Positions 28,962 to 57,586 of a stretch of 64,000 nt of DNA are shown one piece after another. Below the pieces are notes generated by a model that saw nothing but the letters and a program-made list of their open reading frames with translations, searched no databases and had not been told where the DNA came from. A program made the translations under genes and the position numbers. Within the stretch, counting starts at the first letter, position 1, and every line of letters starts with the position of its first letter. Source of the DNA: a bacterium (lineage in GTDB: Bacteria > Patescibacteriota > Patescibacteriia > UBA9570); contig JAUYKW010000018.1 in assembly GCA_030698395.1 (NCBI GenBank), forward strand, positions 44,726 to 108,725. Reading direction: 5' to 3'.

Positions 28962-30827
28962 ATGAATAAAAAAAAATATCAAGCTAAATTTGATGCTTTC
29001 ATAAAAAGGCATCCATTATTGTTACCAGTTATTGTTTCAGTTTTATGTGGATTGGTGTTATTAATTATTGCATTAAAATCTAGTGGTTCAGATTGGTTTT
29101 TTTCGGAGGTGTTAGCGGAGACAATCTATTCAGCAATTGTCTATCATCATGAGTTTCCATTTTTTTCTTACTTTCTAAATGGTGGAACACCTTTTATTCA
29201 AGATCCACAAGGGCCATTATTATCTATTAGTACGTTATGGATTTTGATATTTGGGCCTTGGGGTGGCTTAAGATTTGCCGCATTTTTTTGGGGATTTATC
29301 GGTACCTTTTCCTGCTGGGGGTGGCTAAGACCTAAATTAGGAAGTGGGCCAGCGTTAGTTTCTGCTACTGCCTGGATTTTGAGCATGGGTTTCTTTTGGC
29401 GTTTAGTAGTTGGTCACGATATGTTCTTGTGGCACTTAGCATTACCATTATTTTTAATAGTTATTGAAAAGTTAATATTTAAACCAACATGGAAGAATAG
29501 TATATTACTTGGATTGCTAACTGGATTATTTATCCTCGGACCATCATTACATTCACTTTTATATTTTATTATCCCAGCTGTAGTAATCTGGTACGTGGTG
29601 TTGTTGGTTGGTAATCACAAAAGAATAGCTATTAAGAATATATTTCTATTTTCAGCAATGGCTATTGTTATAGCATTAGCAATTGCATCACCAAAAGTTG
29701 CTGCATGGTCACGGCTAGATATGGTGAGAGAGACACAGAGTGAAAGTGCAATGTATTTAAAGGATGCTTTAATATCAATTGTTGACACTCAAGTTAGATC
29801 TGATCGTGGGTATTTGCTGGACGAGAAGTATGAGCGGGAAAGTTGGGGTATTTGGGAAAGTAATGTTGCCGCAACACCAATAATTCTTACATTAGCAATA
29901 TTAGCGCTTTTCATAGTAGCTTTCAAAAAAGAAAAACCAAATAGTTTGTTCATTTTTTCTATTACACTGTTTTTTGTAGGATTATTTATTGCGACAAACT
30001 CTTGGTTTTGGCAAGTATTTAGAGAATTATCGAATGGTAGTTTTAGGGTATCAGGCAGATTTTTAGGATTAGCTAATTTTTCAATAATTATCTTAGCGGG
30101 TATCGCAACAAAGTATTTGACAGGAATTGTCTCAAAAAAAATTCCTCATTTATCTGCAATTTTTATATTATCAACATTTGTTTTTAGTGCATTACTGATC
30201 TATCAAGCGAGCGTGACATTATCACCATATGTAAGTTCTGGAGGTAATATCCTTAAGCCAATCACAGCTATCTGGAATCATTCAAAAAAGAAAACTGACT
30301 CACCCATGTTAACAGGAGTAAATCATTATTATTATGATCAGGAGATAGAAGCAAATCAAATTAGTTCTGGTAACCTATATTTATTATATGGTCATAAAAT
30401 AATTGGAGATTCTGTTTCTGAAATACCTCTTGATGATTTTATGAAGATATTACCGAATAAAGATATAGAAATTCCAGTCTCACCAGAATTATCACCAGAT
30501 CGTTTAGAAGTATTTCATACTAAATTAGTGATTAGTAATTTACAGCCATTGGAAGAAGTAAACATCAGATTAAAGGTTGCACCATTAGGACAGGAAATTA
30601 TCACAGAACCTAGCGGGGCTAATATCACATTAGAGGAAAATGCAGGCACAATGACATTAATTAATAATGAGAATTACTTAATAGAAAAAATTACGATAAA
30701 ACCAAAGTCTCCTGTACCAGTAATAGCATGGATAGTGTCAATATTAACGTTAATAGCCTCTATAGGCTATCTAGTGGCCAAATCTGGAATTAGTGCTAGA
30801 ATAAGGTTTCAAAAAAATAAGGCATAA
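28962..30827 (+). CDS. Large polytopic membrane protein (621 aa), unknown; first gene of the glycan locus
   Basis: About 12 hydrophobic segments, then a ~190-aa soluble region and a terminal TM helix. It starts 3 nt after the ychF stop. Confidence 0.5.
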   Translation: MNKKKYQAKFDAFIKRHPLLLPVIVSVLCGLVLLIIALKSSGSDWFFSEVLAETIYSAIVYHHEFPFFSYFLNGGTPFIQDPQGPLLSISTLWILIFGPWGGLRFAAFFWGFIGTFSCWGWLRPKLGSGPALVSATAWILSMGFFWRLVVGHDMFLWHLALPLFLIVIEKLIFKPTWKNSILLGLLTGLFILGPSLHSLLYFIIPAVVIWYVVLLVGNHKRIAIKNIFLFSAMAIVIALAIASPKVAAWSRLDMVRETQSESAMYLKDALISIVDTQVRSDRGYLLDEKYERESWGIWESNVAATPIILTLAILALFIVAFKKEKPNSLFIFSITLFFVGLFIATNSWFWQVFRELSNGSFRVSGRFLGLANFSIIILAGIATKYLTGIVSKKIPHLSAIFILSTFVFSALLIYQASVTLSPYVSSGGNILKPITAIWNHSKKKTDSPMLTGVNHYYYDQEIEANQISSGNLYLLYGHKIIGDSVSEIPLDDFMKILPNKDIEIPVSPELSPDRLEVFHTKLVISNLQPLEEVNIRLKVAPLGQEIITEPSGANITLEENAGTMTLINNENYLIEKITIKPKSPVPVIAWIVSILTLIASIGYLVAKSGISARIRFQKNKA

Positions 30828-30830
30828 TCT

Positions 30831-31592
30831 ATGGATATAAAAGTATCAGTAATACTTCCAACTTATAATGAAAAGGATAATATTGGAGATTTAGTATTGG
30901 CCATTGATAAGGAAGTTCAAGCTAGTAAAGAAATTATTGTGGTTGACGACGATTCTCCAGATGGGACGTCTCAAATAATTCAAAAGATGATCGATCAGCA
31001 TCAGGTGCTTAATTTAAGATTGATTACAAGAAAACAAGATAAGGGATTAACCAATAGTATTTGGGAAGGAATTCAGCAAGCACATGGTGAGATTGTGCTA
31101 TGGATGGATTGTGATTTTTCAATGCCTCCAAAAGATATACCTCGTTTATTAAAGAAAATTGATGAAGGTAATGATGTTGCAGTTGGTTCTCGTTTTGTGA
31201 AGGGTGGAAGCTTTAAAGAAGATACGTCAGATTCAGAAGATTCTTGGTTGGCAGTTGTGCTTAGTAGATTGATGAATGTATTTATTCGCATGATGTTAGG
31301 TAGAGATTTTAAGGATTATACGAGTGGTTTTATTGCTATTAAACGAAGCATCTTTGATAAGATAACTCTTACTGGAGATTATGGAGAATATTTTATAGAT
31401 TTGATTGTGCGAGCTAAATTATTCAATTTTAAAATTATTGAAATTCCATATACATGCTTACCCCGTGAAAAAGGTGAGTCTAAGACTGGTAGTAATTTAT
31501 CTGATTATATTAAGCGTGGCAGTAAATACGTTTGGGTGACTTTAAAGCTTTTTAAATTAAGGATGAAGTATAAGTTTTTTAGAATTGTGTAG
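30831..31592 (+). CDS. GT2 glycosyltransferase, polyprenol-phosphate hexosyltransferase (Dpm1/GtrB)-like
   Basis: VSVILPTYNEKDNI, VVDDDSPDGT and DCDFSMPP (DxD). Confidence 0.75.
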   Translation: MDIKVSVILPTYNEKDNIGDLVLAIDKEVQASKEIIVVDDDSPDGTSQIIQKMIDQHQVLNLRLITRKQDKGLTNSIWEGIQQAHGEIVLWMDCDFSMPPKDIPRLLKKIDEGNDVAVGSRFVKGGSFKEDTSDSEDSWLAVVLSRLMNVFIRMMLGRDFKDYTSGFIAIKRSIFDKITLTGDYGEYFIDLIVRAKLFNFKIIEIPYTCLPREKGESKTGSNLSDYIKRGSKYVWVTLKLFKLRMKYKFFRIV

Positions 31593-31596
31593 GACT

Positions 31597-32181
31597 ATGG
31601 TTTTACCATTAAAAAAAGAAAGTATTTCAAAAGTAGTAGATCTTCATAAGCAAGTATTGGGACACACTCTAAACGCTAGAATAGGTTCATGGTTTTTAGA
31701 GAAATTATATGAAGAGACTATGCTAGCAAAAGAAAATGGTAGGTGCTTTGTCTCGTTTGAGGATGAAAAAGTTGTTGGCTTTGTTAGTATTTGTTTAGAT
31801 TATGAAGCTCTCAGTTCACGAATTATGAGTTCATTAACATTGGTACAAAAAATTAAGGTAAGCATTTTTATGGGAAGTCATTTTTGGTTAATACCAGATT
31901 TTTTCAAGAAGCAATTGTTCTCTAGATACATAAAAGCAAATATGCCACAGCCATATCCTATGGTATTAACAATTGGTGTAGATTCTAACCAACAGGGTAA
32001 TGGGATTGGTAAACAATTGATGCATGAGGTAAAAACTAGCTTTCGTAAGCATAATTTAACAGAATTTTATCTAGATACAGAAGAAACAAACGAACAGGCT
32101 ATCGGATTTTATAAGAAAATTGGTTTTGATGAGATTGCCAGGAAATACGGCAACGTAGTTTTGCAATATAAATTGAACTGA
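31597..32181 (+). CDS. GNAT family N-acetyltransferase
   Basis: Acetyl-CoA motif QQGNGIGKQLM. ATG at 31597 lies 5 nt after the GT2 stop. The track TTG start at 31585 is rejected. Confidence 0.7.
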   Translation: MVLPLKKESISKVVDLHKQVLGHTLNARIGSWFLEKLYEETMLAKENGRCFVSFEDEKVVGFVSICLDYEALSSRIMSSLTLVQKIKVSIFMGSHFWLIPDFFKKQLFSRYIKANMPQPYPMVLTIGVDSNQQGNGIGKQLMHEVKTSFRKHNLTEFYLDTEETNEQAIGFYKKIGFDEIARKYGNVVLQYKLN

Positions 32182-33440
32182 TGAGCATTGGTAAGAGAGA
32201 AATTAAAAAGGAGCATCTTCCGATTATAGTATTGGTTGCATTTAGTATCTTGGTGCAGTTAGCAATCTTGCCAAATTTTGGTTCTTTAGATACTAATGCA
32301 TTTATTAGAGTTGTTGATACAGTGGAGGCTTTTGGATTAAAACAAGGGTATGCAATTTATAATTTAGTGTATCCGCCACTAAGCTCCATCTTTGCATATG
32401 GTATTCATTTGATAATTCCGCTTTATTCTTTTATGCCTAAGCATCTACAGGTATTGGCTATAAAAGTGGGTTTGGCAATATTTCATTATGGTTTCCTAGC
32501 TTGTATATTATTGTTTCATAGAAAAAATAAAAAGTTATCTTGGTTCGCAGCAACAAAAGAAACAATTCCTATTTTATTGAACATTGCATTGATTGAGTCT
32601 ACGTTTATTATAGGATCATTTGATATTCTTTTGGCCATTCCGTTATTTTTTGCTTTTTATTTTGTATATAAGAAAAAGTTTTTTTGGTCTGGTTTTTTTC
32701 TCGCCACCGCTTTTTGTACTAAATTATTGCCGATTCTTTTAATTCCAGCTTTTTTAGTTTTCTTTTCATCGAAATTGTCGAAGGAAAAAATTACCCTTAA
32801 TTGGAGAGCGGTAAATTTATTTTTTCTGGGTATGTTAGTTGTAGTTGTACCTTTAGTGGCGTATTTTGGTTATCCGGAGATTAGAGAAATATTTGTAAAA
32901 TCATCAGTTCATAGTGATAAGTTGTCAGCGGCTTTTAATTTTAATAGAATAGTTCGTGAATTATTTATGCCGGAGAATATAACTACGCCGGCTATTTACT
33001 ATTTTGGTCGAGGAGTATTCTTTCTAACCTCAGCATTTTTACTAATAAGATTATGGATGAGTCCAAAGAATATTCAAAATCTACTATATACTAGCATTGG
33101 AATAATCATAACTTATTTTACTTTTCTTGCTGGCGTGCATCAGAATCATATTTTTCCGGCACTAATCTTTGCTATCCTCTTGGTGATGTATAACAAAAAT
33201 AGCATAAATATGTTTATTTATTATTCTATCACTGCAATAGCCTTTATAAATTGGTTCGCACCTTATGGGTTTGGATATTTTGAAACTGTTGAATATACCG
33301 GAATTAGATATTTGTGGCAGCTTCCAGTTACTACCATTGGTTTGATATATGCTTTGTTAAGCTTGCTTACTGTTTTCTTTTTTGGGGGATATATGTGGTT
33401 GGTGTTACGACCAAAATTCTTCAGGCAGACTGAGAAATAA
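32181..33440 (+). CDS. Polytopic GT-C-like membrane glycosyltransferase (DUF2029/GT87-like)
   Basis: 419 aa, more than 10 TM segments, with a YPPLSS motif in the first external loop. TGATG overlap with the GNAT gene. Confidence 0.4.
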   Translation: MSIGKREIKKEHLPIIVLVAFSILVQLAILPNFGSLDTNAFIRVVDTVEAFGLKQGYAIYNLVYPPLSSIFAYGIHLIIPLYSFMPKHLQVLAIKVGLAIFHYGFLACILLFHRKNKKLSWFAATKETIPILLNIALIESTFIIGSFDILLAIPLFFAFYFVYKKKFFWSGFFLATAFCTKLLPILLIPAFLVFFSSKLSKEKITLNWRAVNLFFLGMLVVVVPLVAYFGYPEIREIFVKSSVHSDKLSAAFNFNRIVRELFMPENITTPAIYYFGRGVFFLTSAFLLIRLWMSPKNIQNLLYTSIGIIITYFTFLAGVHQNHIFPALIFAILLVMYNKNSINMFIYYSITAIAFINWFAPYGFGYFETVEYTGIRYLWQLPVTTIGLIYALLSLLTVFFFGGYMWLVLRPKFFRQTEK

Positions 33441-34530
33441 GTTTCATTTGTTCACAAACATAATCAATCTGTTCATCTGTGATTGCTAGACCAGAAGGTA
33501 AATATAGGCCATGTTTTGCTATGTAATCCGTGTTGGGGTAGGATCCAATATCCCCGTAAGTATTTATTAGTACTGGCTGATCTGTTGGCGAGTAAAAGAA
33601 ATCTCTAGTATCAATATCTACTTCTTTTAGCTGTGTTCGGACTTCGTCTTTAGTTTTGCCAAATTCCTCTTCAATTAAAATTGCATACATCCAAAAAACA
33701 TTTTTATTTTTCGGAAGTGTGGTTGGCAACTTAATACCTGGAATATCTTTTAGTACGCTATTATACCTTTCTGCCATCTGATTCTTCTTTTCAATATATT
33801 CATCAATATGCTGAAGTTCCCCGCATCCTATTGCAGCTTGCATATTAGTCATTCTATAGTTATAGCCAACGTGTTCATGGATGAATCTTGTATCAGAGTG
33901 ATAGAGATCTTTTAATTTTCTAGCTTTTTCAGCAATTGCATCGTCATTTGTTACTACCATACCGCCTTCTCCAGTAGTGATTATTTTATTTCCATAAAAA
34001 CTAAAACATGCAATGTCGGACATGCTTCCACAAATTCTTCCTTTGTAGGTTGCACCATGAGCTTCAGCAGCATCTTCAATTACGATCAAATTATGTTTCT
34101 GGGCAATTTCTAATATTGGATCCATATCGCAGGAATGGCCATAGATATGAACGGGCATTATTGCTTTGGTATTTTTGGTAATTTTTTCTTCAAGTTTAGC
34201 TGGATCTAAATTATATGTTTCTAATTCACAATCTACAAAAACTGGTTTAGCCCCAGTGTACATTACTGCAAATATTGTTGCGATCATTGTAAACGCAGGT
34301 ACGATTACTTCATCTCCAGGTCCAATATTCATTGTGAGTAAGGCAGTGTGTAATGCTGTTGTTCCATTATTTGTAGTAATGGCGTGCTTAACACCAAGAT
34401 AAGATGCGAACTTGTTTTCGAATTCTTCTACAAATTTTCCAGCAGATGAGATCCAACCTGTTTCTACTGCTTCTAATATATTTTTTTTTGCTTCTTCTGA
34501 TATCAGCGGTTCATTAACGGGTACACGCAT
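33421..34530 (-). CDS. DegT/DnrJ/EryC1/StrS-family PLP-dependent sugar aminotransferase
   Basis: NGTTALHTAL, and SFYGNKIITTGEGGMV containing the PLP lysine. 369 aa. Confidence 0.85.
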   Translation of the reverse strand: MRVPVNEPLISEEAKKNILEAVETGWISSAGKFVEEFENKFASYLGVKHAITTNNGTTALHTALLTMNIGPGDEVIVPAFTMIATIFAVMYTGAKPVFVDCELETYNLDPAKLEEKITKNTKAIMPVHIYGHSCDMDPILEIAQKHNLIVIEDAAEAHGATYKGRICGSMSDIACFSFYGNKIITTGEGGMVVTNDDAIAEKARKLKDLYHSDTRFIHEHVGYNYRMTNMQAAIGCGELQHIDEYIEKKNQMAERYNSVLKDIPGIKLPTTLPKNKNVFWMYAILIEEEFGKTKDEVRTQLKEVDIDTRDFFYSPTDQPVLINTYGDIGSYPNTDYIAKHGLYLPSGLAITDEQIDYVCEQMKLISQSA

Positions 34531-34533: not shown

Positions 34534-34950
34534 TTAATCCATAAATATTTTAGCTTTCTTATCTCCAGGATATGGGCCTTGTTTGATTTCAATGATTCTA
34601 CATTTACTTAACATTTTAAATGAATGACCGCCAGCAACGAATAGTGCAAAATCTCCTTTATTTAGTTTAACTTTTTTTAGTACGGTCCAATCATTGCGGT
34701 AAATAGTAGCTTCAACACTGCCCTTTTCAATGTAGAGAAATTCTTGAGTAGTGGATACATTGTATTTTAAGCTTGGATGTCGATGAGGTTTTACTTTGTG
34801 ACCTTTAGGATGTTCTAATAGACCAACTTGAAGCGGGTAATTTTGTGGAGTTAAAAAACGCACTCCATCAGCCTTCATGTCTGCGGAATAAATTAAGGCG
34901 TAGACTTTTTTCCCCTCTGTAATTTCGTTTACTGCTTTCATTTGATGCAA
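34534..34950 (-). CDS. Cupin-fold WxcM/FdtA-like sugar 3,4-ketoisomerase (putative)
   Basis: 138 aa with His-containing cupin strands (HPKGHKVKPHRH). It lies immediately upstream of the DegT gene in the same operon. Confidence 0.5.
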   Translation of the reverse strand: MHQMKAVNEITEGKKVYALIYSADMKADGVRFLTPQNYPLQVGLLEHPKGHKVKPHRHPSLKYNVSTTQEFLYIEKGSVEATIYRNDWTVLKKVKLNKGDFALFVAGGHSFKMLSKCRIIEIKQGPYPGDKKAKIFMD

Positions 34951-48635: not shown

Positions 48636-48784
48636 AAATTGCCTACTATTTTCATTGTAGCTTTGTGTATGGTAACAGAACAATGATATGAGGACAATAT
48701 CATGGATACATTATCATTGCCTTGTCACACAGCTATATTTTCAGTATAATATCGACAACTTTATATAACTCCAAATTCAACTGC

Positions 48785-51582: not shown

Positions 51583-52479
51583 TTATTGACCTGCCTTATA
51601 TATAGCGTATCGATCAGCTAACCAATTTTGGGGAGATTGTTTTTTTGGTTGGAGTTTAGCTAGCTCGGATAAGATAGATTCAATATTATATCCAAGGAGG
51701 GATAATTTTTCTGAGTCTAATGAACGTAGATATTTTTTTGCGTACTGTATACGTAAATTTGTATTGAATGTAGTTTTCCATTTTTCTAATGACTTATTCT
51801 GTACCTGTTTTTCTTTAGCTATATAGGGATCTCCCATGGTGCCATGAAGTTTTTCTTTTTGAATATTTTGGATCATATTTGAATTGAATGGTATTTCTAG
51901 ATAGTTACAAATCTTCTCTGTAACTTCGCTTGATTTTTCTACTAACTCTTCATATTTAATTAATATACTTTTTTCTTTCAGCAATTCATATCCATCACTC
52001 AGGAGATGTGGACCTTCATACAGATCTGTATTTGAAGGTTTTACATTTAATTTACCAAAGTTCCATGTTTCAATCACTGAAGCTAATGTTGCCAAAGGAT
52101 TTCTGCCTAAAAAAATAAATTTTGCCTCAGGAAATAATTTTGCTATTTCTGGAATAATAAAATAGTAACGAGGAGTTTTATCAAGAAAATATTTTTCATT
52201 GTCACAAGCTGAACTATATATGTCAGTGACAAATTCTTTTAATGACTTATCATAAGAAAACATTTTTTTTGGAAGTTCTGAAAAAAAATCTTGTAGCGCT
52301 TGACGACAAACTTCCTTATCGTAATCTACTGTTAGATCATTTTGTTTTTTTGGATATAGGAGTGGTAACAATATCCATGGTTCAGATACAGAACAAATTT
52401 CTGGATGAGACATTAATATTTTCTGCAGTAAAGTTGAACCAGAACGAGGTGTGGAAAAGAGGAAGATTAAATTATCCAT
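51583..52479 (-). CDS. Sulfotransferase (Sulfotransfer_1/3-like)
   Basis: 5'-PSB loop STPRSGSTLLQKIL and 3'-PB-like FLGRNPLATLAS. 298 aa. Confidence 0.65.
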   Translation of the reverse strand: MDNLIFLFSTPRSGSTLLQKILMSHPEICSVSEPWILLPLLYPKKQNDLTVDYDKEVCRQALQDFFSELPKKMFSYDKSLKEFVTDIYSSACDNEKYFLDKTPRYYFIIPEIAKLFPEAKFIFLGRNPLATLASVIETWNFGKLNVKPSNTDLYEGPHLLSDGYELLKEKSILIKYEELVEKSSEVTEKICNYLEIPFNSNMIQNIQKEKLHGTMGDPYIAKEKQVQNKSLEKWKTTFNTNLRIQYAKKYLRSLDSEKLSLLGYNIESILSELAKLQPKKQSPQNWLADRYAIYKAGQ

Positions 52480-53491
52480 TTTTTCTAATTAATTTGCTAT
52501 AAGCTAGAGCTAACATATCTTGAAGTTGAGTTTTTTTACAAGAAATTATTCTTCGACGTAAATCATTTGGTATTACTTGCTGAATATCATCTTGCTCATT
52601 TAATTCTTGTATTTCAGCAACATAATCTTTATTTTTTTCGTAGAGTATATCAGCGTATTCTGTTCTATCAGATAGCTTTGGATTATTATGTTCCTCAGGC
52701 CACTTTAAAAGTTGTTCTTGCAATTTAAAATAAAGTTTAACTTTTTCACTAGTTCGTAAACCATTAGTCCCAATTGGATGCCATGGGTGTGCCGTGTATG
52801 TGTCTGTAAGTACAGCTCCTTTGCTGTTAGCGGCCATTTCCAATCTGATACTGACATCTTCTCCAATTTTGGATAGAGAAGTACTCCAAAGAGGATTAGT
52901 GTCATATCCTTCTATTATATCCCAATACTTTCTTGCCGCGGATATCATTGGTCCAAAATTTCGGCGGGGTGGAAATAATTCAGGTTGTCTATATTTTGTT
53001 GGGCAAGTTGCTAGCACAGATGCTAGATCGTTGTTAGCATTTTGCCATTCCTTAAAGGATGCCCCAGCTGGGTATTGAGCCATTCTACGAAACGCATTAA
53101 ATACTTTGTACTTTCCTTGTTGATGATGCTTTGTTAGCACAGTTAGAAAGTCTTTAGGTAGAAGTTGATCTCCATCCATTACTGAAATTATATCGCCTTG
53201 AGATGCCGCTATGCCAGCATTATTACATTTTGATAAGTGATAAGCTTCAGTATTAACATTCTCGTCCAAATAAATTATCTTGATATTCATTTGGTCTTTA
53301 ACTTCTTTATGGCGATCGAACAGCGATTTTAATCCCTTTTTGTGATTATACTTATCGGCAAATTCACGGCTTCTTTGTTCAACATAAATAAGTTCAAAAT
53401 TATTCCTAGGGAAATCTTGATTTAGTAGACCATTAATTAGATGAAAAAAATTACGATAACTCGAGTCCCAACTAATGATAGAGTGTAACAT
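52472..53491 (-). CDS. GT2-like glycosyltransferase (divergent)
   Basis: GT-A-like N-terminus (FELIYVEQRS) and DxD candidate VMDGDQ. 8-nt overlap with the downstream sulfotransferase gene. Confidence 0.45.
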   Translation of the reverse strand: MLHSIISWDSSYRNFFHLINGLLNQDFPRNNFELIYVEQRSREFADKYNHKKGLKSLFDRHKEVKDQMNIKIIYLDENVNTEAYHLSKCNNAGIAASQGDIISVMDGDQLLPKDFLTVLTKHHQQGKYKVFNAFRRMAQYPAGASFKEWQNANNDLASVLATCPTKYRQPELFPPRRNFGPMISAARKYWDIIEGYDTNPLWSTSLSKIGEDVSIRLEMAANSKGAVLTDTYTAHPWHPIGTNGLRTSEKVKLYFKLQEQLLKWPEEHNNPKLSDRTEYADILYEKNKDYVAEIQELNEQDDIQQVIPNDLRRRIISCKKTQLQDMLALAYSKLIRKNG

Positions 53492-53495
53492 ATAG

Positions 53496-54467
53496 TTATT
53501 TTATATCAGTCAACCAAGCTCTTACAAGTTTGATTTCGTCGTTGGATACAAATCCATTTTTATGAAGAGCAGTGTAAACAATTTCTAAGTTTTTCAATAA
53601 ATCTTTACCTAGTTTTATATTTTGAAGTAATTCAATGATTGGTTTAGTGTTTTGATATACTTCAACTTCATCAGCAAAATCTTTCATTAAGTTGTGAGCA
53701 TTTCTTTCTTGGTAAACAGTTGCCTCAGTAAAACCTAAATGCATGCCATGTAGCCACATAATATGTTGTGCCAGATAACCTCTTAGAATATCAGTAAATC
53801 TAAAACTAACAGTTGCGGGGAGATATAATAATGGAAATGCTTTTTTTTGCCAGAAAGTATTTTGCGAATTAAACGGACAGTAACACTTTTTTGGTAAATG
53901 AATACTTTTTTTTCGATCGAATTTGGTAGTGTCGTTAAAGACTAAGCGATAAATGGCATCAACATCTGGATCTGTATCAGCTAAACCTTGCCATGCTCCA
54001 ATACTAGTTAATTTAGAATGTTGTTTTAACTTGCTCTTATTTTTTGTTTGAATGAGGTCTAACGGGTATCCTCGTGGCCAAATTAATTTCTTTGAAAAGT
54101 AATTGTATACATTATAATATTTGTCTTTTGTCTCTATACTTCTTTTGCTAGTAAAATCTGGACACTTCCAATGTTTGTATGGCAGATTGTCGTCATCTGT
54201 ATCATAGATAATATCTGCTCCTTGACGCATTGCATAAATATACCCGATGTTTTTTCTAGTATAGTGGTTATAAGGACTGTAGCGAACAAATTCGTAGCCT
54301 AGTTTTTTTTGATCTTGAACTGAAAGGAAGGTTAAGTTTTTTGAACTTTTAATTTGTGGAGTTTTTTTATCTCCAACAAGAACAACGTGCCAATCTGGAA
54401 TTTTTTCAAAAGCTTTTACCGCTTTAGTTCTGTCGTTAATGCTAGTTATGACTATGAATTTTTTCAT
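53496..54467 (-). CDS. Putative glycosyltransferase, DUF288/STELLO-like
   Basis: The N-terminal pattern KKFIVITSINDRT..WHVVLVGDKKTP and a DTDDDN motif resemble that family. The call is from memory only. Confidence 0.35.
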   Translation of the reverse strand: MKKFIVITSINDRTKAVKAFEKIPDWHVVLVGDKKTPQIKSSKNLTFLSVQDQKKLGYEFVRYSPYNHYTRKNIGYIYAMRQGADIIYDTDDDNLPYKHWKCPDFTSKRSIETKDKYYNVYNYFSKKLIWPRGYPLDLIQTKNKSKLKQHSKLTSIGAWQGLADTDPDVDAIYRLVFNDTTKFDRKKSIHLPKKCYCPFNSQNTFWQKKAFPLLYLPATVSFRFTDILRGYLAQHIMWLHGMHLGFTEATVYQERNAHNLMKDFADEVEVYQNTKPIIELLQNIKLGKDLLKNLEIVYTALHKNGFVSNDEIKLVRAWLTDIK

Positions 54468-55675
54468 GATAGTTGCGTAATTTTATAATCAGTTGGAGGA
54501 CAAGATCCTAAGACATCTCTGCGCGACACAATAAAAGGATCAATTACACTAGTTGGTTGCATTTCAAAGAATAATAATTGTGGACGGTAAAAAATTCCTG
54601 TATCAAGCAGTCCCAGCCCTAAGCTAATGCTGTAATTTCCGGGTGGAAGATTTGTATCTTCAGCAGAAATTTCAAGTTTATGTTTTCCTTTAGGAATGGC
54701 ATCTATTTTTGCTGTAACTGTCATGATGCGTGCTAACTGACTGTTAAATATTTGGATACCAACTCTAATATTATTGAGTTCTTTATCGGTGTTATTAGTT
54801 ACTAGCAACTCTGTAATCAGAGGCTTGCTGTACTGCATTTGGGACAATCTAATTTGTTCAATAGTAAAGTTTTTGATTTTTGTATCAAACGGACCAGTTC
54901 CTGATTCTTGAGAATTTGTCAGGCGTAGATATTCTTGAACAGCTTTGTCTGTATCTGCGATCGTTACAATTTTTCCTTGATTCAGCACAACGCATGATTT
55001 ACATAAGCTTTGAATTGCTCCCATATTGTGGCTAACAAAAATGATAGTGCGACCATCTTCTTTTGTTACTTCATCCATTTTGCCAAGGCACTTTTTTTGA
55101 AACTGGGTATCACCAACAGCTAGTACTTCATCTACTAAAAGAATCTCTGGTTCTAGATGGGCAGCTACAGCAAATGCTAAACGCACGCGCATCCCACTAG
55201 AATATCTTTTTACTGGGGTGTCTAAGAATTTTTCTACTTCTGCGAATTCAACAATTTCATCAAACTTTTTTGAGATTTCTCTTTTTGTCATGCCCAATAC
55301 AGCTCCATTTAGAAATACATTTTCTCGGCCAGTTAATTCTGGATGAAATCCAGTGCCAACTTCCAATAAGCTAGCAACTCTGCCACGTAAAGTTATTTTA
55401 CCAGTGGTTGGTGATGTGATGCGGGACAATACTTTTAATAGGGTACTTTTACCAGCTCCGTTACTACCGATTAATCCTATTACTTCACCTTTCTCTATAG
55501 AAAAATTTATATCTTTAAGTGCCCAGAATGTTTCTCGATGGGATTCTTTGTTTGTGAACCATTTTTTTGGATTTAAAGATTTAGCAATTACATCACGTAA
55601 AGCTACATAGGGTTCCATTTCCCCTAGTTGATATTGTTTTGAAATATTTTCAGCTAGAATTACAGGTTTGGACAT
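54464..55675 (-). CDS. wzt: Polysaccharide ABC exporter ATP-binding protein (Wzt/TagH type) with a C-terminal extension
   Basis: GSNGAGKSTLLK, SSGMRVRLAFA and LLVDEVLAVGD. About 150 extra C-terminal residues are beta-rich. Confidence 0.8.
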   Translation of the reverse strand: MSKPVILAENISKQYQLGEMEPYVALRDVIAKSLNPKKWFTNKESHRETFWALKDINFSIEKGEVIGLIGSNGAGKSTLLKVLSRITSPTTGKITLRGRVASLLEVGTGFHPELTGRENVFLNGAVLGMTKREISKKFDEIVEFAEVEKFLDTPVKRYSSGMRVRLAFAVAAHLEPEILLVDEVLAVGDTQFQKKCLGKMDEVTKEDGRTIIFVSHNMGAIQSLCKSCVVLNQGKIVTIADTDKAVQEYLRLTNSQESGTGPFDTKIKNFTIEQIRLSQMQYSKPLITELLVTNNTDKELNNIRVGIQIFNSQLARIMTVTAKIDAIPKGKHKLEISAEDTNLPPGNYSISLGLGLLDTGIFYRPQLLFFEMQPTSVIDPFIVSRRDVLGSCPPTDYKITQLS

Positions 55676-55679
55676 AATT

Positions 55680-56501
55680 TTATACTACATCTGCGAACTT
55701 TTGTTCGGTTTTACGGAAATAAAATAAGCCTACAATAAATAACAATATTGAAATACCTATAGACATGGCTAGACTTTCTAGATTAATTGGCGTATTTCCA
55801 ATAATGATGGCACGAGCGTTTTCAATTACACCAGACATTGGATTAAGATTTAGAATCCATTGGTATTTCTCGCCAGCAATTTTTGCGGGATAAATTACGG
55901 GTGTTAAAAAAAGTAGCATTTGAATAAAAAACGGAATAATATATCGGACATCACGATATTTTACATTTACTGCTGATAGAAATAATCCCATACCTAAACT
56001 AGTGAAGTAGGTAATGAGAATCAATATTGGAATAAGAAATAGACTAATTGGTTTAGGGACGAATTGATAATAAAACATCATGGCACAGAGGATGGAGCTG
56101 GCAATTAAGAAATCAATAAAAGCAACAATTACTGTTGATGATGGTAATATTAATCTTGGAAAATAGATTTTTTTGATCATCTCTTGATCAGATACTAAGC
56201 TACCGCTAGCACTTGATAGTGCTTGTGAGAAAAAGAGCCAGAAAACTAAACCAACATAAACAAATATTGGATATGGAGCACCGCTAGAATCTATTTGAGC
56301 TAGGTTTCCAAAAAAGACTGTAAAAATTACCATACTTATGATAGGTACAAAAAAAGCCCACAATATTCCAATGGCTGTTTGTTTGTATCTTACTTTTACA
56401 TCTCTAAGTGCAAGAAAGTAAAAGAGATCTTTATATTGGAGCATTTCCCGGAAGTCTATCCGTAGCCAGCTACGTTTTGGTAGGATAATTGTTTCTTTCA
56501 T
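55680..56501 (-). CDS. wzm: Polysaccharide ABC exporter permease (Wzm/TagG, ABC-2 type)
   Basis: 273 aa with six TM segments and the ABC-2 pattern. It lies directly upstream of wzt. Confidence 0.8.
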   Translation of the reverse strand: MKETIILPKRSWLRIDFREMLQYKDLFYFLALRDVKVRYKQTAIGILWAFFVPIISMVIFTVFFGNLAQIDSSGAPYPIFVYVGLVFWLFFSQALSSASGSLVSDQEMIKKIYFPRLILPSSTVIVAFIDFLIASSILCAMMFYYQFVPKPISLFLIPILILITYFTSLGMGLFLSAVNVKYRDVRYIIPFFIQMLLFLTPVIYPAKIAGEKYQWILNLNPMSGVIENARAIIIGNTPINLESLAMSIGISILLFIVGLFYFRKTEQKFADVV

Positions 56502-56575
56502 TTACGAAGAATATTTATAATTGAGCAGGCATACTCTACTATTTTTAAGGGTATAAGTCAACAAGTTTTATTAGT

Positions 56576-57586
56576 CTATGCTTTTTCCAGAAATACAATA
56601 AAGCTCTCTCCTTTGCCGGCTTTATCGCGTATCCGCCATGCTGGAATGGTGAAGTAACTATTCAATAATGCTAGAACTCTCAAACTGAATTCTTTGAAAC
56701 TTAAGTATTTAATATATTCTAATGTATTCATGTTCTTAGGACGCGGTTGCCAGATGGTTTCTTTGTTTCCCAGTGATACTCGTTCTTTTTTATTGGTAAG
56801 ATATTGTAATGCAACCCAACCCATTGGAGTGGTAGTTTCGGATTTAAGAACTTTGAATCCAGTTTCTTTAGCCAGAACATTTATACTTTTTTGTGAAAAA
56901 AAATTTACGTGATATGGAATGTGCCAGTTAATCCATTTTTTTTCGGTTCGCTTTGCATTTGCACTTTCTATATTTGGTGTACTAAGAATTATTTTACCAC
57001 CAACCTTTAATTTTTTTGATATTTTGATTAAAAAATCTTTAGGATCAGGTATATGTTCTATTAACTGACTCATTGTGATGAAATCAAAGAAATCATCAGG
57101 GTAAGGCATTGTGTCTATGTCGCCAAAATGTATTTCTAAATTTAGTTCGTCTGCAATTGGTTTTATATTTTTATCTAGTTCTGTTCCGTATGCATCACCA
57201 CCAAGTTTAGTAATTTCTAAAAGAGATACTCCGTTTCCGCAACCTATATCCAAAACTTTGCTACCAGCAGTTATATAACTATGACATTTATTTTTTTCTC
57301 CTTGTAGATTGTTTTTGTCGCTATTTGGTTTTCTAGAGAAATTATCAGCAGTTGCTTTTACATCATCAGCAGTCATTGCTTTTCTGGGATAATAATCTGT
57401 ATAAATACTTTCTAATACTTCACTAGATGGAATTGGGTTAATTTCAGCAAAGTTACATGATGAACATTTATTCACTGAGTATTGTTCAGGGTATCCATAA
57501 CGATCATCATGCATTTCATTGTACAGGAGTGTCGTCGGAGATTTGCATATTTTGCAGTATAATACTGCATTTTCTTCACTTAGCAT
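56576..57586 (-). CDS. Class I SAM-dependent methyltransferase with an N-terminal Cys4 zinc ribbon
   Basis: CKICKS...CSSC ribbon and motif I VLDIGCGNG. It is the first gene of the wzm-wzt operon. Confidence 0.7.
   Translation of the reverse strand: MLSEENAVLYCKICKSPTTLLYNEMHDDRYGYPEQYSVNKCSSCNFAEINPIPSSEVLESIYTDYYPRKAMTADDVKATADNFSRKPNSDKNNLQGEKNKCHSYITAGSKVLDIGCGNGVSLLEITKLGGDAYGTELDKNIKPIADELNLEIHFGDIDTMPYPDDFFDFITMSQLIEHIPDPKDFLIKISKKLKVGGKIILSTPNIESANAKRTEKKWINWHIPYHVNFFSQKSINVLAKETGFKVLKSETTTPMGWVALQYLTNKKERVSLGNKETIWQPRPKNMNTLEYIKYLSFKEFSLRVLALLNSYFTIPAWRIRDKAGKGESFIVFLEKA

What the first reader, a model, noticed from the sequence alone, without database searches (positions are those of the whole stretch)
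28962..57586. A ~28.6 kb surface-glycan locus occupies nearly half of the window
About 29 consecutive genes fall in this locus:
- Six or seven GT2/GT-A enzymes and four GT4 enzymes.
- Four large polytopic GT-C-like proteins.
- GtrA.
- gmd-fcl (GDP-fucose synthesis).
- A DegT aminotransferase, a cupin isomerase and a GNAT.
- A UDP-GlcA-4-epimerase-like enzyme.
- Two sulfotransferases.
- FkbM and class I methyltransferases.
- A Wzm/Wzt exporter.

For an organism whose other genes look streamlined, this is a very large investment in one complex, heavily decorated polymer (fucose, an amino-dideoxy sugar, a uronic acid, methyl and sulfate groups). Such a polymer could be central to cell-cell attachment or phage defence.
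Basis: partly seen in the sequence, partly recalled or inferred. Interest (0 to 1): 0.5.

Follow-up and report, generated by a model that had tools for sequence, protein, structure and literature searches.

The report
Mosaic surface-glycan gene island in a CPR bacterium
Nearly half of this window from a tiny-genome (Patescibacteria/CPR) bacterium is a real but conventional sugar-polymer gene island, made of a lineage-conserved fucose core plus swappable modules that include an export-and-sulfation cassette.

Summary
Positions 28962-57586 carry 29 tightly packed ORFs (98% coding) between ychF and rpsF-ssb-rpsR-efp, and 27-28 of them are glycan-related.

- There are three GT4 enzymes, not four.
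- The "UDP-GlcA epimerase" is only a GalE-like SDR, and no Ugd is present, so a uronic acid is unsupported.
- The cupin is a sub-threshold WbuC-like match.
- The methyltransferase at 35497-36636 is a nucleic-acid-type enzyme. It belongs to the conserved chromosomal backbone and is probably not a glycan enzyme.

All four polytopic proteins have GT-C support: one by Pfam GT87, two by AlphaFold models that match only GT-C structures, and one by transitive homology to YfhO/AftD.

Eleven related CPR contigs show a mosaic island with these parts:
- A conserved core of a GT-C, an 82-aa partner, an SDR, a GacI/GacJ-like GT2+DUF2304 pair, gmd and fcl.
- A movable amino-sugar module.
- A roughly 9-kb cassette (two sulfotransferases, FkbM, four glycosyltransferases, Wzm/Wzt) seen in no relative.

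The mechanism is the known ABC-transporter-dependent assembly combined with lipid-linked, GT-C-mediated decoration outside the membrane. The claim of one polymer is unproven, and roles in attachment or phage defence are untested. This is a new member of a known kind, of moderate-to-low interest.

The parts
28962..30827 (+). 621-aa polytopic membrane protein, a remote YfhO-like GT-C glycosyltransferase
   Evidence: About 11 TM segments. No Pfam, NCBIfam or PDB sequence hit. The family is small: 8 word-index hits and 39 representatives at E<=1e-30. Distant relatives hit Pfam YfhO (8/39), PTPS_related (8/39) and GT-C_AftD (4/39). Two paralogs exist in the same MAG.
30831..31592 (+). GT2, a candidate polyprenyl-phosphate glycosyltransferase (ArnC/AglJ/Dol-P-hexose-transferase-like)
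   Evidence: Pfam Glycos_transf_2, 115 bits. The best NCBIfam models are ArnC (91 bits), AglJ and Dol-P-hexose transferase, all below cut-off. A 66% identical ortholog sits in the L088 module.
31585..32181 (+). GNAT N-acetyltransferase
   Evidence: Pfam Acetyltransf_1, 62.9 bits. No specific NCBIfam assignment. A 42% identical ortholog is in L088.
32181..33440 (+). GT87-family GT-C glycosyltransferase (419 aa, about 9 TM)
   Evidence: Pfam GT87, 43.1 bits against a cut-off of 25. TM prediction. No ortholog in the related loci.
33421..34530 (-). DegT/DnrJ/EryC1 sugar aminotransferase
   Evidence: Pfam 429 bits. The best NCBIfam models are the LegC family (360 bits) and PseC (281 bits), both below cut-off. 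Orthologs of 65-69% identity are in L083, L086, L087 and L088.
34534..34950 (-). Small cupin, WbuC-like, always paired with the DegT gene
   Evidence: NCBIfam cupin_WbuC 33.5 bits (cut-off 42) and Pfam Cupin_2 17.7 bits, both sub-threshold. Orthologs of 65-70% identity lie next to DegT in L083, L086 and L088.
35074..35496 (+). GtrA-family small membrane protein (proposed flippase for polyprenyl-P-sugar)
   Evidence: Pfam GtrA_DPMS_TM, 98 bits. Orthologs of 63-65% identity in L083 and L088.
35497..36636 (-). UPF0020/TIGR01177-type class I methyltransferase, probably a backbone RNA/DNA methyltransferase and not a glycan enzyme
   Evidence: Pfam UPF0020 and N6_N4_Mtase. NCBIfam TIGR01177 and Trm14-like. 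PADLOC nucleic-acid methyltransferase models. Homologs lie between ychF and ssb in distant Patescibacteria that have no glycan genes there (L008, L016, L028). It overlaps the upstream SDR gene by 25 nt. No (D/N)PPY motif was found, so the substrate is uncertain.
36612..37550 (-). SDR nucleotide-sugar epimerase/dehydratase (GalE-like), part of the conserved core
   Evidence: Pfam Epimerase, 201 bits. NCBIfam GalE 200 bits, below the 262 cut-off. Orthologs of 55-67% identity in L085 and L089-L093.
37583..37831 (-). 82-aa two-TM protein, conserved partner gene of the 522-aa GT-C
   Evidence: Two TM segments. No family hit. It overlaps the GT-C gene by 17 nt. An 81-82-aa gene follows the GT-C ortholog in L083/L084 and L085, and L089 has a 43% identical one.
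37815..39383 (-). 522-aa GT-C-fold glycosyltransferase with no existing family model, part of the conserved core
   Evidence: 12 TM segments. Invariant TPD after TM1. AlphaFold2 pLDDT 80.9, pTM 0.76. The 29 best Foldseek PDB hits are all GT-C enzymes: AftD 4.7e-7, PglB/STT3, ALG12, DPY19, ArnT with TM 0.56-0.58. Only 9 homologs were found.
39644..40306 (+). GT2 polyprenyl-phosphate sugar synthase candidate (PpgS/GacI-like), part of the conserved core
   Evidence: Pfam GT2, 95.5 bits. The best NCBIfam models are PpgS (117.7 bits), AglJ and Dol-P-hexose transferase, all below cut-off. Orthologs of 57-67% identity in 7 related loci.
40291..40650 (+). DUF2304 small membrane protein (GacJ/Rv3632-like activator of the GT2)
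   Evidence: Pfam DUF2304, 55.5 bits. Three TM segments. It overlaps the GT2 gene by 16 nt. The role of GacJ and Rv3632 is described in bioRxiv 10.1101/180810.
40661..41710 (+). GDP-mannose 4,6-dehydratase (Gmd)
   Evidence: NCBIfam TIGR01472, 577 bits against a cut-off of 415. Orthologs of 79-83% identity in relatives.
41712..42641 (+). GDP-L-fucose synthase (Fcl)
   Evidence: NCBIfam NF047922, 511.7 bits against a cut-off of 500. Orthologs of 67-75% identity.
42644..43414 (+). GT2 (TuaG/WcaE-like) with a C-terminal TM, candidate cytoplasmic-face transferase
   Evidence: Pfam GT2, 108 bits. NCBIfam TuaG 94 bits and WcaE 61 bits, below cut-off. Orthologs of 51-57% identity in most relatives.
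43415..44578 (+). GT4 glycosyltransferase
   Evidence: Pfam Glycos_transf_1 and Glyco_transf_4. Only 22-29% identical to the GT4 at this position in relatives, so it is not orthologous.
44575..46554 (-). 659-aa GT-C-fold glycosyltransferase with no existing family model
   Evidence: About 10 TM segments. Invariant WPTPDE after TM1. AlphaFold2 pLDDT 82.2, pTM 0.82. Foldseek PDB hits: ArnT 5.9e-5, STT3, ALG12, ALG9, PglB, EmbB, AftB. 18 homologs were found, some fused to GT8 and some named Kerfeldbacteria.
46587..47450 (-). GT2 with a C-terminal TM, paired with the 659-aa GT-C
   Evidence: Pfam GT2, 69 bits. TM at 263-281. GT2 genes of 30-39% identity lie next to the GT-C659-like gene in L086, L087 and L089.
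47463..48683 (-). GT4 glycosyltransferase, the first gene of the cassette that has no counterpart in relatives
   Evidence: Pfam Glycos_transf_1, 100.5 bits. No homolog in 11 related loci.
48722..49573 (+). Sulfotransferase (Sulfotransfer_2 family)
   Evidence: Pfam 35.6 bits against a cut-off of 22. The HIRKTGGTS and VRDPLERVVS PAPS-binding motifs are intact.
49576..50316 (+). FkbM-family methyltransferase
   Evidence: Pfam Methyltransf_21, 53.3 bits. NCBIfam fkbM_fam, 64 bits against a cut-off of 37.7.
50320..51570 (+). GT4 glycosyltransferase
   Evidence: Pfam Glycos_transf_1, 105.8 bits.
51583..52479 (-). Sulfotransferase (Sulfotransfer_3/1 family, NoeE-like N-terminus)
   Evidence: Pfam Sulfotransfer_3, 108.6 bits. 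NCBIfam NoeE 84 bits, N-terminal part only and below cut-off. The TPRSGST and GRNPLATLAS motifs are intact. No close relative in JGI metagenomes.
52472..53491 (-). Divergent GT2-like GT-A enzyme
   Evidence: Pfam GT2, 31.9 bits against a cut-off of 23.3. A DGD motif is present. No NCBIfam hit.
53496..54467 (-). STELLO-like GT-A glycosyltransferase
   Evidence: Pfam STELLO, 54.2 bits against a cut-off of 27.8, covering the C-terminal 100 residues only. A DTDDD motif lies in the N-terminal half.
54464..55675 (-). Wzt, the ABC-exporter ATPase, with a C-terminal extension
   Evidence: Pfam ABC_tran, and Wzt_C at 21.9 bits, sub-threshold. The best NCBIfam models are TagH and galactan Wzt. It aligns to the 404-aa chain 8dku/7k2t over residues 43-354, E 1e-68, which is beyond the nucleotide-binding domain.
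55680..56501 (-). Wzm, the ABC-2 permease
   Evidence: Pfam ABC2_membrane, 68 bits. NCBIfam galactan Wzm/RfbD 70.7 bits and KpsM 42 bits, below cut-off. Six TM segments.
56576..57586 (-). Class I SAM methyltransferase with an N-terminal Cys4 zinc ribbon, a possible chain-end methylase
   Evidence: Pfam Methyltransf_23, 87.9 bits. CxxC...CxxC at the N-terminus. Orthologs of 47-48% identity lie next to the GT-C659-like gene in L086 and L087.

Best explanation
The interval is a mosaic cell-envelope glycan island of a Patescibacteria (CPR) bacterium. It sits at a lineage-conserved chromosomal site between ychF and rpsF-ssb-rpsR-efp, and it is built from at least four modules that recur independently in relatives.

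1. Lineage-conserved core (36612-44578). It holds a new GT-C family (522 aa) with an 82-aa membrane partner and a GalE-like SDR. Transcribed divergently from these are a PpgS/GacI-like GT2 with its DUF2304 (GacJ-like) activator, gmd, fcl, a GT2 and a GT4.

2. Movable amino-sugar module (28962-35496). It holds a YfhO-like GT-C, an ArnC-like GT2, a GNAT, a GT87 GT-C, DegT with a cupin, and GtrA.

3. A GT-C (659 aa) with its paired GT2 (44575-47450), plus a methyltransferase (56576) that is adjacent to this pair in relatives.

4. A roughly 9-kb cassette found in no relative examined (47463-56501). It holds two GT4, two GT-A-type transferases, two sulfotransferases, FkbM and Wzm/Wzt.

Inferred mechanism:
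- A glycan chain is built on a polyprenyl carrier at the cytoplasmic face by the soluble GT2 and GT4 enzymes, using GDP-L-fucose among other donors.
- It is O-methylated and O-sulfated in the cytoplasm, where SAM and PAPS are available.
- It is exported by Wzm/Wzt, whose extended C-terminus may recognise a terminal cap.
- Separately, the membrane-associated GT2 enzymes load single sugars onto polyprenyl phosphate, including an aminated and probably N-acetylated sugar made by DegT and the GNAT.
- GtrA flips these carriers, and the four GT-C enzymes transfer the sugars to acceptors outside the membrane. This is the 'three-component' type of decoration.

Shown: the gene families, the folds, the synteny and the modularity. 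Inferred: the donors, the acceptors, the order of steps, and whether the modules feed one product or several.
For: - Domain inventory.
- Four polytopic proteins.
- GT-C fold of the 522-aa and 659-aa proteins.
- YfhO/AftD link of the 621-aa family.
- gmd and fcl score above the equivalog cut-offs.
- The GT2+DUF2304 pair matches the experimentally characterised GacI/GacJ and PpgS/Rv3632 pairs (bioRxiv 10.1101/180810).
- The combination of an ABC exporter with three-component decoration, and a priming enzyme encoded elsewhere, are documented features of such pathways (PMC11127046).
- Wzt aligns to the 404-aa chain 8dku/7k2t well beyond the NBD.
- Each unmodelled GT-C has an adjacent GT2 (621/30831, 522/39644, 659/46587). 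The last two pairings, and the block-A gene set, are conserved in relatives.
- Same chromosomal site in relatives. In L093, ychF and the methyltransferase are 139 bp apart with the core following. In L085 and L089 other small genes fill that gap. In L088 the island ends directly at rpsF-ssb-rpsR-efp.
- No homolog of 47463-56501 in any of the 11 related loci.
- Both sulfotransferases keep their PAPS-binding motifs.
Against: - No initiating phosphoglycosyltransferase (WecA/TagO/WbaP type), no ManC, no PAPS-synthesis genes and no LCP-type or WaaL-type ligase are in the window. The start, the sulfate donor and the final anchoring are therefore unaccounted for here.
- Only one GtrA serves up to three putative lipid-sugar synthases.
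- Assigning 30831 and 46587 as polyprenyl-phosphate transferases rests on sub-threshold best hits and on adjacency.
- The Pfam Wzt_C match is below its cut-off.
- The related loci are partial contigs, so 'absent in relatives' applies only to the 14-22 kb seen in each.
- All function is inferred from homology. The organism is uncultured.
Confidence: 0.62

Rival explanations
1. One reading: the whole 28.6 kb encodes one heavily decorated polymer. The ABC-exported, methylated and sulfated, fucose-containing chain would be the acceptor for all four GT-C enzymes.
For: - All genes are contiguous, with 98% coding density and uniform GC of 0.31-0.34.
- ABC-exported chains decorated by three-component systems are known from the group A carbohydrate and from Klebsiella and Citrobacter O antigens.
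- The 56576-type methyltransferase links the exporter arm to the GT-C659 module, because it is adjacent to GT-C659 in relatives.
Against: - The core and the GT-C modules occur in relatives with no Wzm/Wzt in the stretches seen. Their acceptor evidently does not depend on this cassette.
- There are about eight transcription units with many strand switches.
- A backbone methyltransferase gene lies within the island.
Confidence: 0.25
2. Protein glycosylation. Some or all of the GT-C enzymes would glycosylate S-layer, pilin or other surface proteins. This could happen through PMT/YfhO-like O-glycosylation from lipid-linked monosaccharides, or by en-bloc transfer as in the Geobacillus S-layer glycan pathway. 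The targets would then be proteins rather than a wall polysaccharide.
For: - The 522-aa model's top hits include the oligosaccharyltransferases STT3, PglB and AglB, and DPY19.
- GT-C plus GtrA plus GT2 systems are reported to glycosylate membrane-associated proteins in streptococci (title and abstract of PMC12041528, listed).
- From general knowledge, CPR cells carry S-layers and abundant pili.
- In a distant relative the same chromosomal interval holds type IV pilus genes (L008).
Against: - No WWDxG-type oligosaccharyltransferase motif is among the invariant residues of the 522-aa family.
- The fold hits include lipid- and polysaccharide-directed GT-Cs (AftD, ArnT, ALG12, EmbB) equally well.
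- No candidate acceptor protein gene is in the locus.
Confidence: 0.1
3. A teichoic-acid-type or LPS O-antigen-type cluster, meaning a well-described polymer class under another name.
For: The best NCBIfam models for Wzt are the TagH teichoic-acid exporter ATPases (208 and 182 bits) and galactan Wzt (190 bits). TarH and TagH structures are among the top PDB hits.
Against: - No CDP-glycerol or CDP-ribitol enzymes, and no TagB/TagF-type glycerophosphotransferase, appear among the 29 ORFs.
- No WaaL, Lpt or lipid A genes are in the window.
- All TagH and Wzt matches are far below the equivalog cut-offs.
- The content is mosaic and matches no described cluster.
Confidence: 0.03

Closest known systems
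Group A carbohydrate (gac) cluster of Streptococcus pyogenes and related rhamnose-rich wall-polysaccharide clusters
   Same: Both combine an ABC exporter for a chain built in the cytoplasm with a GT2 (GacI) and DUF2304 (GacJ) pair that makes a polyprenyl-P-sugar. A polytopic GT-C (GacL) then adds that sugar outside the membrane. Both belong to a monoderm-type envelope.
   Different: There are no rhamnose genes (rmlA-D) and no rhamnosyltransferases. There is no GacH-type glycerophosphate transferase. The flippase candidate is GtrA rather than a Wzx-like GacK. This locus has four GT-Cs, fucose synthesis, two sulfotransferases and an amino-sugar branch. Sequence similarity is at family level only.
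Three-component (GtrA/GtrB/Gtr*) glycan-modification systems, including B. subtilis/Listeria CsbB-YfhO-GtcA and E. coli ArnB/ArnC/ArnT
   Same: The set of parts is the same: a polyprenyl-phosphate GT2, a small GtrA flippase and a GT-C transferase. Block A even pairs a YfhO-like GT-C with an ArnC-like GT2 and a DegT aminotransferase, which recalls the Arn logic.
   Different: Up to three GT2/GT-C pairs and a GT87 share a single GtrA. Three of the GT-Cs match no Pfam or NCBIfam model. An 82-aa partner gene accompanies one of them. The donors and acceptors are unknown.
ABC-transporter-dependent O-antigen pathways with a CBD-bearing Wzt and a terminal methyl cap (E. coli O8/O9a, Aquifex aeolicus Wzm-Wzt)
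   Same: Wzm and a Wzt with a C-terminal extension are present. This Wzt aligns to the 404-aa chain 8dku/7k2t over residues 43-354, which I recall to be the full-length A. aeolicus Wzt. Methyltransferase genes lie next to the exporter, and the priming enzyme is not in the cluster.
   Different: There is no LPS context. No WbdD-like kinase or coiled-coil ruler was recognised. The Wzt_C Pfam match is sub-threshold. Sulfotransferases are present.
Mycobacterial arabinogalactan/LAM machinery (Wzm/Wzt Rv3781/Rv3783, PpgS-Rv3632-Rv3779, GT87 mannosyltransferases, AftD)
   Same: The best-matching models for several parts are mycobacterial types: PpgS, galactan Wzm/Wzt, GT87 and AftD as the top fold hit. 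A DUF2304 partner of the GT2 is present, as with Rv3632.
   Different: All of these matches are far below the equivalog cut-offs. There are no galactofuranose or arabinofuranose (DprE, UbiA) genes. The phylum and envelope are different.

Membership tests
ABC-transporter-dependent polysaccharide assembly pathway | Wzm-type ABC-2 permease and Wzt-type ATPase encoded together in the glycan cluster | tested here: met
   ABC2_membrane 68 bits and ABC_tran 89.7 bits in adjacent genes. The best NCBIfam models are the galactan Wzm/Wzt and TagH exporters. The top PDB hits are the 8dku/7k2t 'ABC transporter' chains and TarH/TagH.
ABC-transporter-dependent polysaccharide assembly pathway | No Wzx flippase or Wzy polymerase; the chain is completed by cytoplasmic glycosyltransferases | tested here: inconclusive
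   No Polysacc_synt, MOP or Wzy_C Pfam hit among the 29 ORFs. Six soluble or monotopic GT2/GT4 enzymes are present. However, Wzy proteins are often missed by profiles, and the rest of the genome was not seen.
ABC-transporter-dependent polysaccharide assembly pathway | Initiating polyprenyl-phosphate phosphoglycosyltransferase (WecA/TagO/WbaP type) | tested here: not met
   None is in the 64-kb window. This does not exclude membership, because the enzyme is frequently encoded elsewhere in such systems (PMC11127046). It is not testable beyond the window.
CBD-Wzt / terminal-cap export control | C-terminal carbohydrate-binding domain on Wzt and a chain-terminating enzyme | tested here: inconclusive
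   Wzt is 403 aa. Pfam Wzt_C scores 21.9 bits against a cut-off of 30.4. The alignment to the 404-aa chain 8dku/7k2t runs to residue 354. The adjacent methyltransferase 56576 has a zinc ribbon but no recognised coiled coil.
Three-component extracytoplasmic glycosylation system (GtrA / polyprenyl-P GT2 / GT-C) | GT-C-fold polytopic transferase | tested here: met
   GT87 Pfam hit. The AlphaFold models of the 522-aa and 659-aa proteins match only GT-C structures among significant hits. Distant relatives of the 621-aa family hit YfhO and GT-C_AftD.
Three-component extracytoplasmic glycosylation system (GtrA / polyprenyl-P GT2 / GT-C) | GT2 that makes a polyprenyl-monophosphate sugar | tested here: inconclusive
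   The best models for 39644 are PpgS, AglJ and Dol-P-hexose transferase, and it has a DUF2304 partner as in GacI/GacJ. The best model for 30831 is ArnC.
Three-component extracytoplasmic glycosylation system (GtrA / polyprenyl-P GT2 / GT-C) | GtrA-type small flippase | tested here: met
   GtrA_DPMS_TM, 98 bits against a cut-off of 26.1.
GDP-L-fucose de novo pathway | Gmd and Fcl both present as equivalogs | tested here: met
   TIGR01472 577 bits (cut-off 415) and NF047922 511.7 bits (cut-off 500). PMM/PGM lies upstream at 21534-22910. ManC is not in the window.
PAPS-dependent carbohydrate sulfotransferases | 5'-PSB and 3'-PB PAPS-binding motifs | tested here: met
   TPRSGST and GRNPLATLAS in 51583; HIRKTGGTS and VRDPLERVVS in 48722. 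Pfam scores are above cut-off.
PAPS-dependent carbohydrate sulfotransferases | A PAPS supply (ATP sulfurylase and APS kinase) in the organism | not testable with these tools
   None is in the window. The rest of the MAG (locus tags Q8P90_) could not be queried.
Wall teichoic acid cluster | Polyol-phosphate polymerase or primase (TagB/TagF family) and CDP-glycerol/ribitol synthesis | tested here: not met
   No such Pfam or NCBIfam hit among the 29 ORFs.
Known anti-phage defence systems (PADLOC) | A match to a defence-system protein model beyond generic domains | tested here: not met
   Ten proteins were scanned. The only hits were generic methyltransferase models (mad2, MTase_II) for the two class I methyltransferases.

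The most novel reading that the evidence does not exclude
The operon GT2(PpgS/GacI-like)-DUF2304-gmd-fcl is conserved in all six distinct related contigs that show this region, and it is always transcribed divergently from the new 522-aa GT-C and its 82-aa partner. One reading is that this GT2 loads L-fucose from GDP-fucose onto polyprenyl phosphate, in the way dolichol-P-mannose synthase uses GDP-mannose. The GT-C would then fucosylate an envelope acceptor outside the membrane. That would be a lipid-linked fucose donor and a CPR-specific extracytoplasmic fucosylation system that, as far as I know and as far as a full-text search showed, has not been described. The more conservative alternative is that the GalE-like SDRs in the same core supply UDP-Gal(NAc) to the GT2, as for PpgS, while fucose is added in the cytoplasm by the downstream GT2 and GT4.
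Probability: 0.15. Interest if true: 0.6.

Novelty: new member of a known kind. Interest (0 to 1): 0.35.

Why it matters
CPR/Patescibacteria are thought to live attached to host cells, and their surface chemistry is almost unknown. This window shows that one such organism devotes about 29 kb to envelope glycans. From general knowledge of CPR genome sizes near 1 Mb, that would be roughly 3% of the genome.

The genes sit in a hot spot between ychF and rpsF that keeps a fucose/GT-C core across relatives while swapping other modules. That pattern is typical of surface structures under diversifying selection. The locus also supplies three GT-C families with no existing profile model and a sulfation cassette, which are concrete targets for biochemical work.

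The machinery itself is of well-known types, so the finding extends known biology to a poorly known phylum rather than changing it.

Tried and rejected
1. Sequence searches of the three unmodelled polytopic proteins against PDB gave nothing useful. Fold prediction or transitive profile searching was needed instead.
2. Profile-profile comparison of the three families with each other found no relationship, so they are not recent paralogs.
3. A GTDB species-representative scan with YchF found no close relative. The best hit was 58% identical, so no synteny at short distance came from that collection. The distant Patescibacteria loci did reveal the conserved ychF-methyltransferase-ssb backbone.
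4. A JGI metagenome scan with sulfotransferase 51583 found no relative.
5. Looking up paralog P0004 gave no contig.
6. The STELLO-like ORF and the following GT2-like ORF were considered as a split gene. This was rejected, because they are in different frames and the second has no STELLO match.
7. The teichoic-acid, LPS O-antigen and known defence-system readings were rejected (see the membership tests).
8. A uronic-acid component was rejected as unsupported, because there is no Ugd and the SDR is GalE-like.
9. Rfam and tRNA scans of the window found nothing.
10. Literature searches found no paper that links CPR/Patescibacteria with sulfotransferases or with a described glycan cluster of this kind.

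Full report

Yes. ORF calling gives 29 consecutive ORFs from 28962 to 57586. They cover 98% of the interval, and most junctions are between -25 and +38 nt. The interval is bounded on the left by YchF (27906-28958). On the right it is bounded by ribosomal protein S6 (57817-58470), followed by ssb, S18 and efp.

Pfam and NCBIfam scans assign 25 of the 29 ORFs to glycan-related families. The three large proteins without family hits proved to be GT-C enzymes (section 3). The remaining 82-aa gene is their conserved neighbour.

GC content is 0.329 in the locus against about 0.36 in both flanks. This is a mild dip of the kind often seen in surface-glycan clusters.

**2. Corrections to the inventory**

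- GT-A type: six genes (30831, 39644, 42644, 46587, 52472, and the STELLO-like 53496, which has a DTDDD motif).
- GT4: three genes (43415, 47463, 50320), not four.
- gmd and fcl both exceed the NCBIfam equivalog cut-offs, at 577/415 and 511.7/500 bits, so GDP-L-fucose synthesis is well supported.
- DegT is strong (429 bits), but its best specific models (LegC family, PseC) are below cut-off.
- The cupin is only a sub-threshold WbuC-family match.
- The SDR at 36612 is best matched by GalE at 200 bits (cut-off 262). TviC scores only 98.6 bits, and no UDP-glucose dehydrogenase is present. A uronic acid is therefore not supported.
- Both sulfotransferases retain the two PAPS-binding motifs.
- Wzt is 403 aa and aligns to the 404-aa 'ABC transporter' chain 8dku/7k2t over residues 43-354 (E 1e-68). 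From memory this chain is the full-length Aquifex aeolicus Wzt. The alignment runs well past the nucleotide-binding domain, although the Pfam Wzt_C score (21.9 bits) is below its cut-off.
It overlaps the preceding GT2 by 16 nt.

**3. The four polytopic proteins**

Hydropathy analysis predicts 9-12 TM segments in each.

- The protein at 32181 hits Pfam GT87 (43 bits against a cut-off of 25).
- The 522-aa, 659-aa and 621-aa proteins hit no Pfam, NCBIfam or PDB sequence.
- Their families are very small in a search of 5.8 billion proteins: 9, 18 and 8 members respectively. Source names, where given, are Kerfeldbacteria or simply 'bacterium'.
- Family alignments show an invariant acidic motif just after TM1. 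It is TPD in the 522-aa family and WPTPDE in the 659-aa family.
- The AlphaFold2 model of the 522-aa protein has pLDDT 80.9 and pTM 0.76. Its 29 best PDB matches are all GT-C enzymes: AftD, PglB/STT3/AglB, ALG12, ALG9, DPY19, ArnT, Pmt4, AftA and EmbB.
- The AlphaFold2 model of the 659-aa protein has pLDDT 82.2 and pTM 0.82. It matches ArnT, STT3, ALG12, ALG9, PglB, EmbB and AftB.
An exhaustive profile search found 39 representatives at E<=1e-30 and 1345 at E<=1e-3. Among 38 more distant relatives, 8 hit Pfam YfhO, 8 hit PTPS_related and 4 hit GT-C_AftD. It is therefore a remote YfhO-like GT-C.
- The three families are not detectably related to each other.

**4. Organism**

The window is part of an NCBI MAG labelled only 'bacterium' (locus tags Q8P90_, contig 112,874 bp). 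It was also assembled from run SRR13727534.

The best YchF relatives among the GTDB species representatives are only 54-58% identical. The top matches are mostly Parcubacteria/Patescibacteria MAGs, interleaved with Bacillota MAGs of similar identity. Kerfeldbacteria lie in the Parcubacteria group of the Patescibacteria.

**5. Comparative anatomy**

Eleven related contigs were recovered through the GT-C families (L083-L093) and compared by tblastn.

(a) Backbone.
- L093 and L089 have YchF 71-72% identical and SHMT 80-81% identical to the window. L093 additionally carries PMM, the methyltransferase and ELP3 upstream.
- In L093 the order is PMM, methyltransferase, ELP3, SHMT, YchF. It then runs directly (139 bp) into the UPF0020-type methyltransferase, followed by SDR, the 82-aa gene, the GT-C522 ortholog, a second SDR, and the divergent GT2-DUF2304-gmd-fcl operon.
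- In L089 the gap between YchF and the methyltransferase is 1.6 kb. In L085 it holds four small hypothetical genes.
- In the window the same gap holds 6.5 kb and seven genes (28962-35496).
- The methyltransferase also lies between ychF and ssb in much more distant Patescibacteria, where the neighbouring cargo is different. It is type IV pilus genes in L008, restriction-modification genes in L016, and a reverse transcriptase plus PGA_cap in L028.
- This methyltransferase matches nucleic-acid methyltransferase models. I therefore read 35497-36636 as a backbone gene embedded in the island. Two cautions apply: it is translationally coupled to the SDR (25-nt overlap), and it lacks a canonical (D/N)PPY motif.

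(b) Core. The following are conserved, in this arrangement, in L083/L084, L085, L089, L090, L091 and L093:
- SDR 36612 (55-67% identity)
- the 82-aa gene
- GT-C522 (37-45%)
- GT2 39644 (57-67%)
- DUF2304 (55-69%)
- gmd (79-83%)
- fcl (67-75%)
- usually GT2 42644 (51-57%)

The GT4 that follows is not orthologous (22-29%).

(c) Block A.
- L088 carries the same gene set: GT2 at 66%, GNAT at 42%, DegT at 68%, cupin at 70%, a YfhO-like GT-C at 35% and GtrA at 63%.
- There it lies at the other end of the island, immediately before rpsF-ssb-rpsR-efp.
- L083 and L086 carry parts of the set.
- GT87 was found in none of the relatives.

(d) GT-C659 and its neighbours.
- GT-C659 and a neighbouring GT2 are paired in L086, L087 and L089.
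- In L086 and L087 a 47-48% identical ortholog of methyltransferase 56576 lies directly beside them.

(e) The cassette without counterparts.
- Nothing between 47463 and 56501 has a counterpart in any related locus. This stretch holds GT4, a sulfotransferase, FkbM, GT4, a sulfotransferase, GT2, the STELLO-like GT, Wzt and Wzm.
- A JGI metagenome scan with one of the sulfotransferases also found nothing.
- The simplest reading is a self-contained exporter-and-sulfation cassette of about 9 kb. It would have been inserted between methyltransferase 56576 and the GT2/GT-C659 pair.
- These contigs are partial, so absence is established only for the stretches seen.

**6. Mechanism (inferred)**

Each piece corresponds to a well-studied type.

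- Wzm/Wzt, together with soluble GT2 and GT4 enzymes and no recognisable Wzx or Wzy, define ABC-transporter-dependent assembly. In this pathway the whole chain is made on a polyprenyl carrier in the cytoplasm and then exported. The priming enzyme is commonly encoded elsewhere (PMC11127046).
- Sulfotransferases and FkbM- or class-I methyltransferases are soluble, so sulfation and methylation should precede export.
- The extended Wzt C-terminus and the neighbouring methyltransferase suggest export gated by a terminal cap, as in the CBD-Wzt systems. This point is inconclusive.
- GT2 39644 plus DUF2304 mirrors GacI/GacJ and PpgS/Rv3632. In those systems the small protein stimulates synthesis of a polyprenyl-phosphate sugar, which a GT-C (GacL) then transfers outside the membrane (bioRxiv 10.1101/180810).
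- GT2 30831 is ArnC-like. It sits next to the YfhO-like GT-C, DegT, a GNAT and GtrA. This resembles both the CsbB/YfhO/GtcA systems and the Arn systems.
- GT2 46587 is paired with GT-C659.
- The locus therefore probably runs up to three lipid-linked monosaccharide branches, plus a GT87 enzyme, through one GtrA.

The donor sugars, the acceptors and the final anchoring are not determined. The window contains no priming enzyme, ManC, PAPS-synthesis genes or LCP/WaaL-type ligase.

**7. One polymer or several?**

The core and the GT-C modules persist in relatives in which no exporter was seen. This argues that their acceptor does not depend on the Wzm/Wzt cassette.

My best reading (0.62) is a composite island whose modules may feed one or several products. 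I give the strict one-polymer reading 0.25, protein glycosylation 0.10, and a teichoic-acid or O-antigen identity 0.03.

No known defence system is present. Roles in attachment or phage interaction remain speculation.

**8. Novelty and score**

Every mechanistic element is of a known kind. What is new:
- the setting, a CPR bacterium, for which literature searches found no described glycan cluster of this kind and no mention of sulfotransferases
- three GT-C families without profile models
- a conserved 82-aa partner gene
- a hot spot between ychF and rpsF with a conserved fucose core

The most novel reading still open is that the GT2-DUF2304-gmd-fcl operon makes a polyprenyl-phosphate fucose donor for extracytoplasmic fucosylation. 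I put this at about 0.15, because the GalE-like SDRs in the same core make a PpgS-like UDP-Gal(NAc) donor at least as plausible.

Overall this is a new member of a known kind, with interest 0.35.

Noticed in passing
window 5950-7050 (ORF 5836-6987, +): A sharp GC island of 0.52-0.575 in a 0.33-0.38 background, flanked by very AT-rich spacers (0.22-0.26). It holds a single ORF, with a probable start at M62, that has no Pfam, PDB or Rfam match. It looks like one gene of foreign composition.
   Followed up: partly
window 1671-5656 (-) and 7167-8093 (-): Three sizeable ORFs (470, 828 and 308 aa) around the GC island have no Pfam hit at E<=0.001.
   Followed up: no
window 21534-24258 (-): A phosphomannomutase/phosphoglucomutase gene overlaps a 454-aa, roughly 7-TM protein that has no family hit. 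The pair is conserved upstream of ychF in L093 (64% and 26% identity). PMM would feed the GDP-mannose to GDP-fucose route. The membrane protein might be a further envelope-glycan component lying outside the reported coordinates.
   Followed up: partly
window 24930-26534 (+): An ELP3-like radical-SAM plus GNAT protein (Radical_SAM, Radical_SAM_C, Acetyltransf_1, weak ELP3_N). It is conserved at 73% identity in L093 and at 46-48% in L004 and L028. It is part of the conserved backbone of this lineage.
   Followed up: no
L082 1040-2878; P0002 and P0004 (same MAG, locus tags Q8P90_00205 and Q8P90_00695): The 621-aa YfhO-like GT-C has two further paralogs (40-41% identity) on another contig of the same genome. 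One is a stand-alone gene next to phosphoglucose isomerase. The genome therefore holds at least six GT-C genes.
   Followed up: partly
P0021, P0022 and P0029 (relatives of window 44575-46554): Some members of the 659-aa GT-C family are about 960 aa long, and one carries a Pfam GT8 (PF01501) domain. This is a fusion of a GT-C with a soluble retaining glycosyltransferase.
   Followed up: no
L008 12600-17700; L016 11500-17600; L028 11000-16700: In distant Patescibacteria the same ychF-methyltransferase-ssb interval carries quite different cargo. L008 has type IV pilus genes (PilM, T2SSF, T2SSE). L016 has two DNA methyltransferases of restriction-modification type. L028 has a reverse transcriptase, a CDP-alcohol phosphatidyltransferase and PGA_cap. 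The interval therefore behaves as a general hot spot for surface and defence genes.
   Followed up: partly
window 18331-19985 (-): A second ABC-2 exporter pair is DrrA/DrrB-like (drrA 311.6 bits against a cut-off of 312.45). It is not a Wzm/Wzt type and is probably unrelated to the glycan locus.
   Followed up: partly
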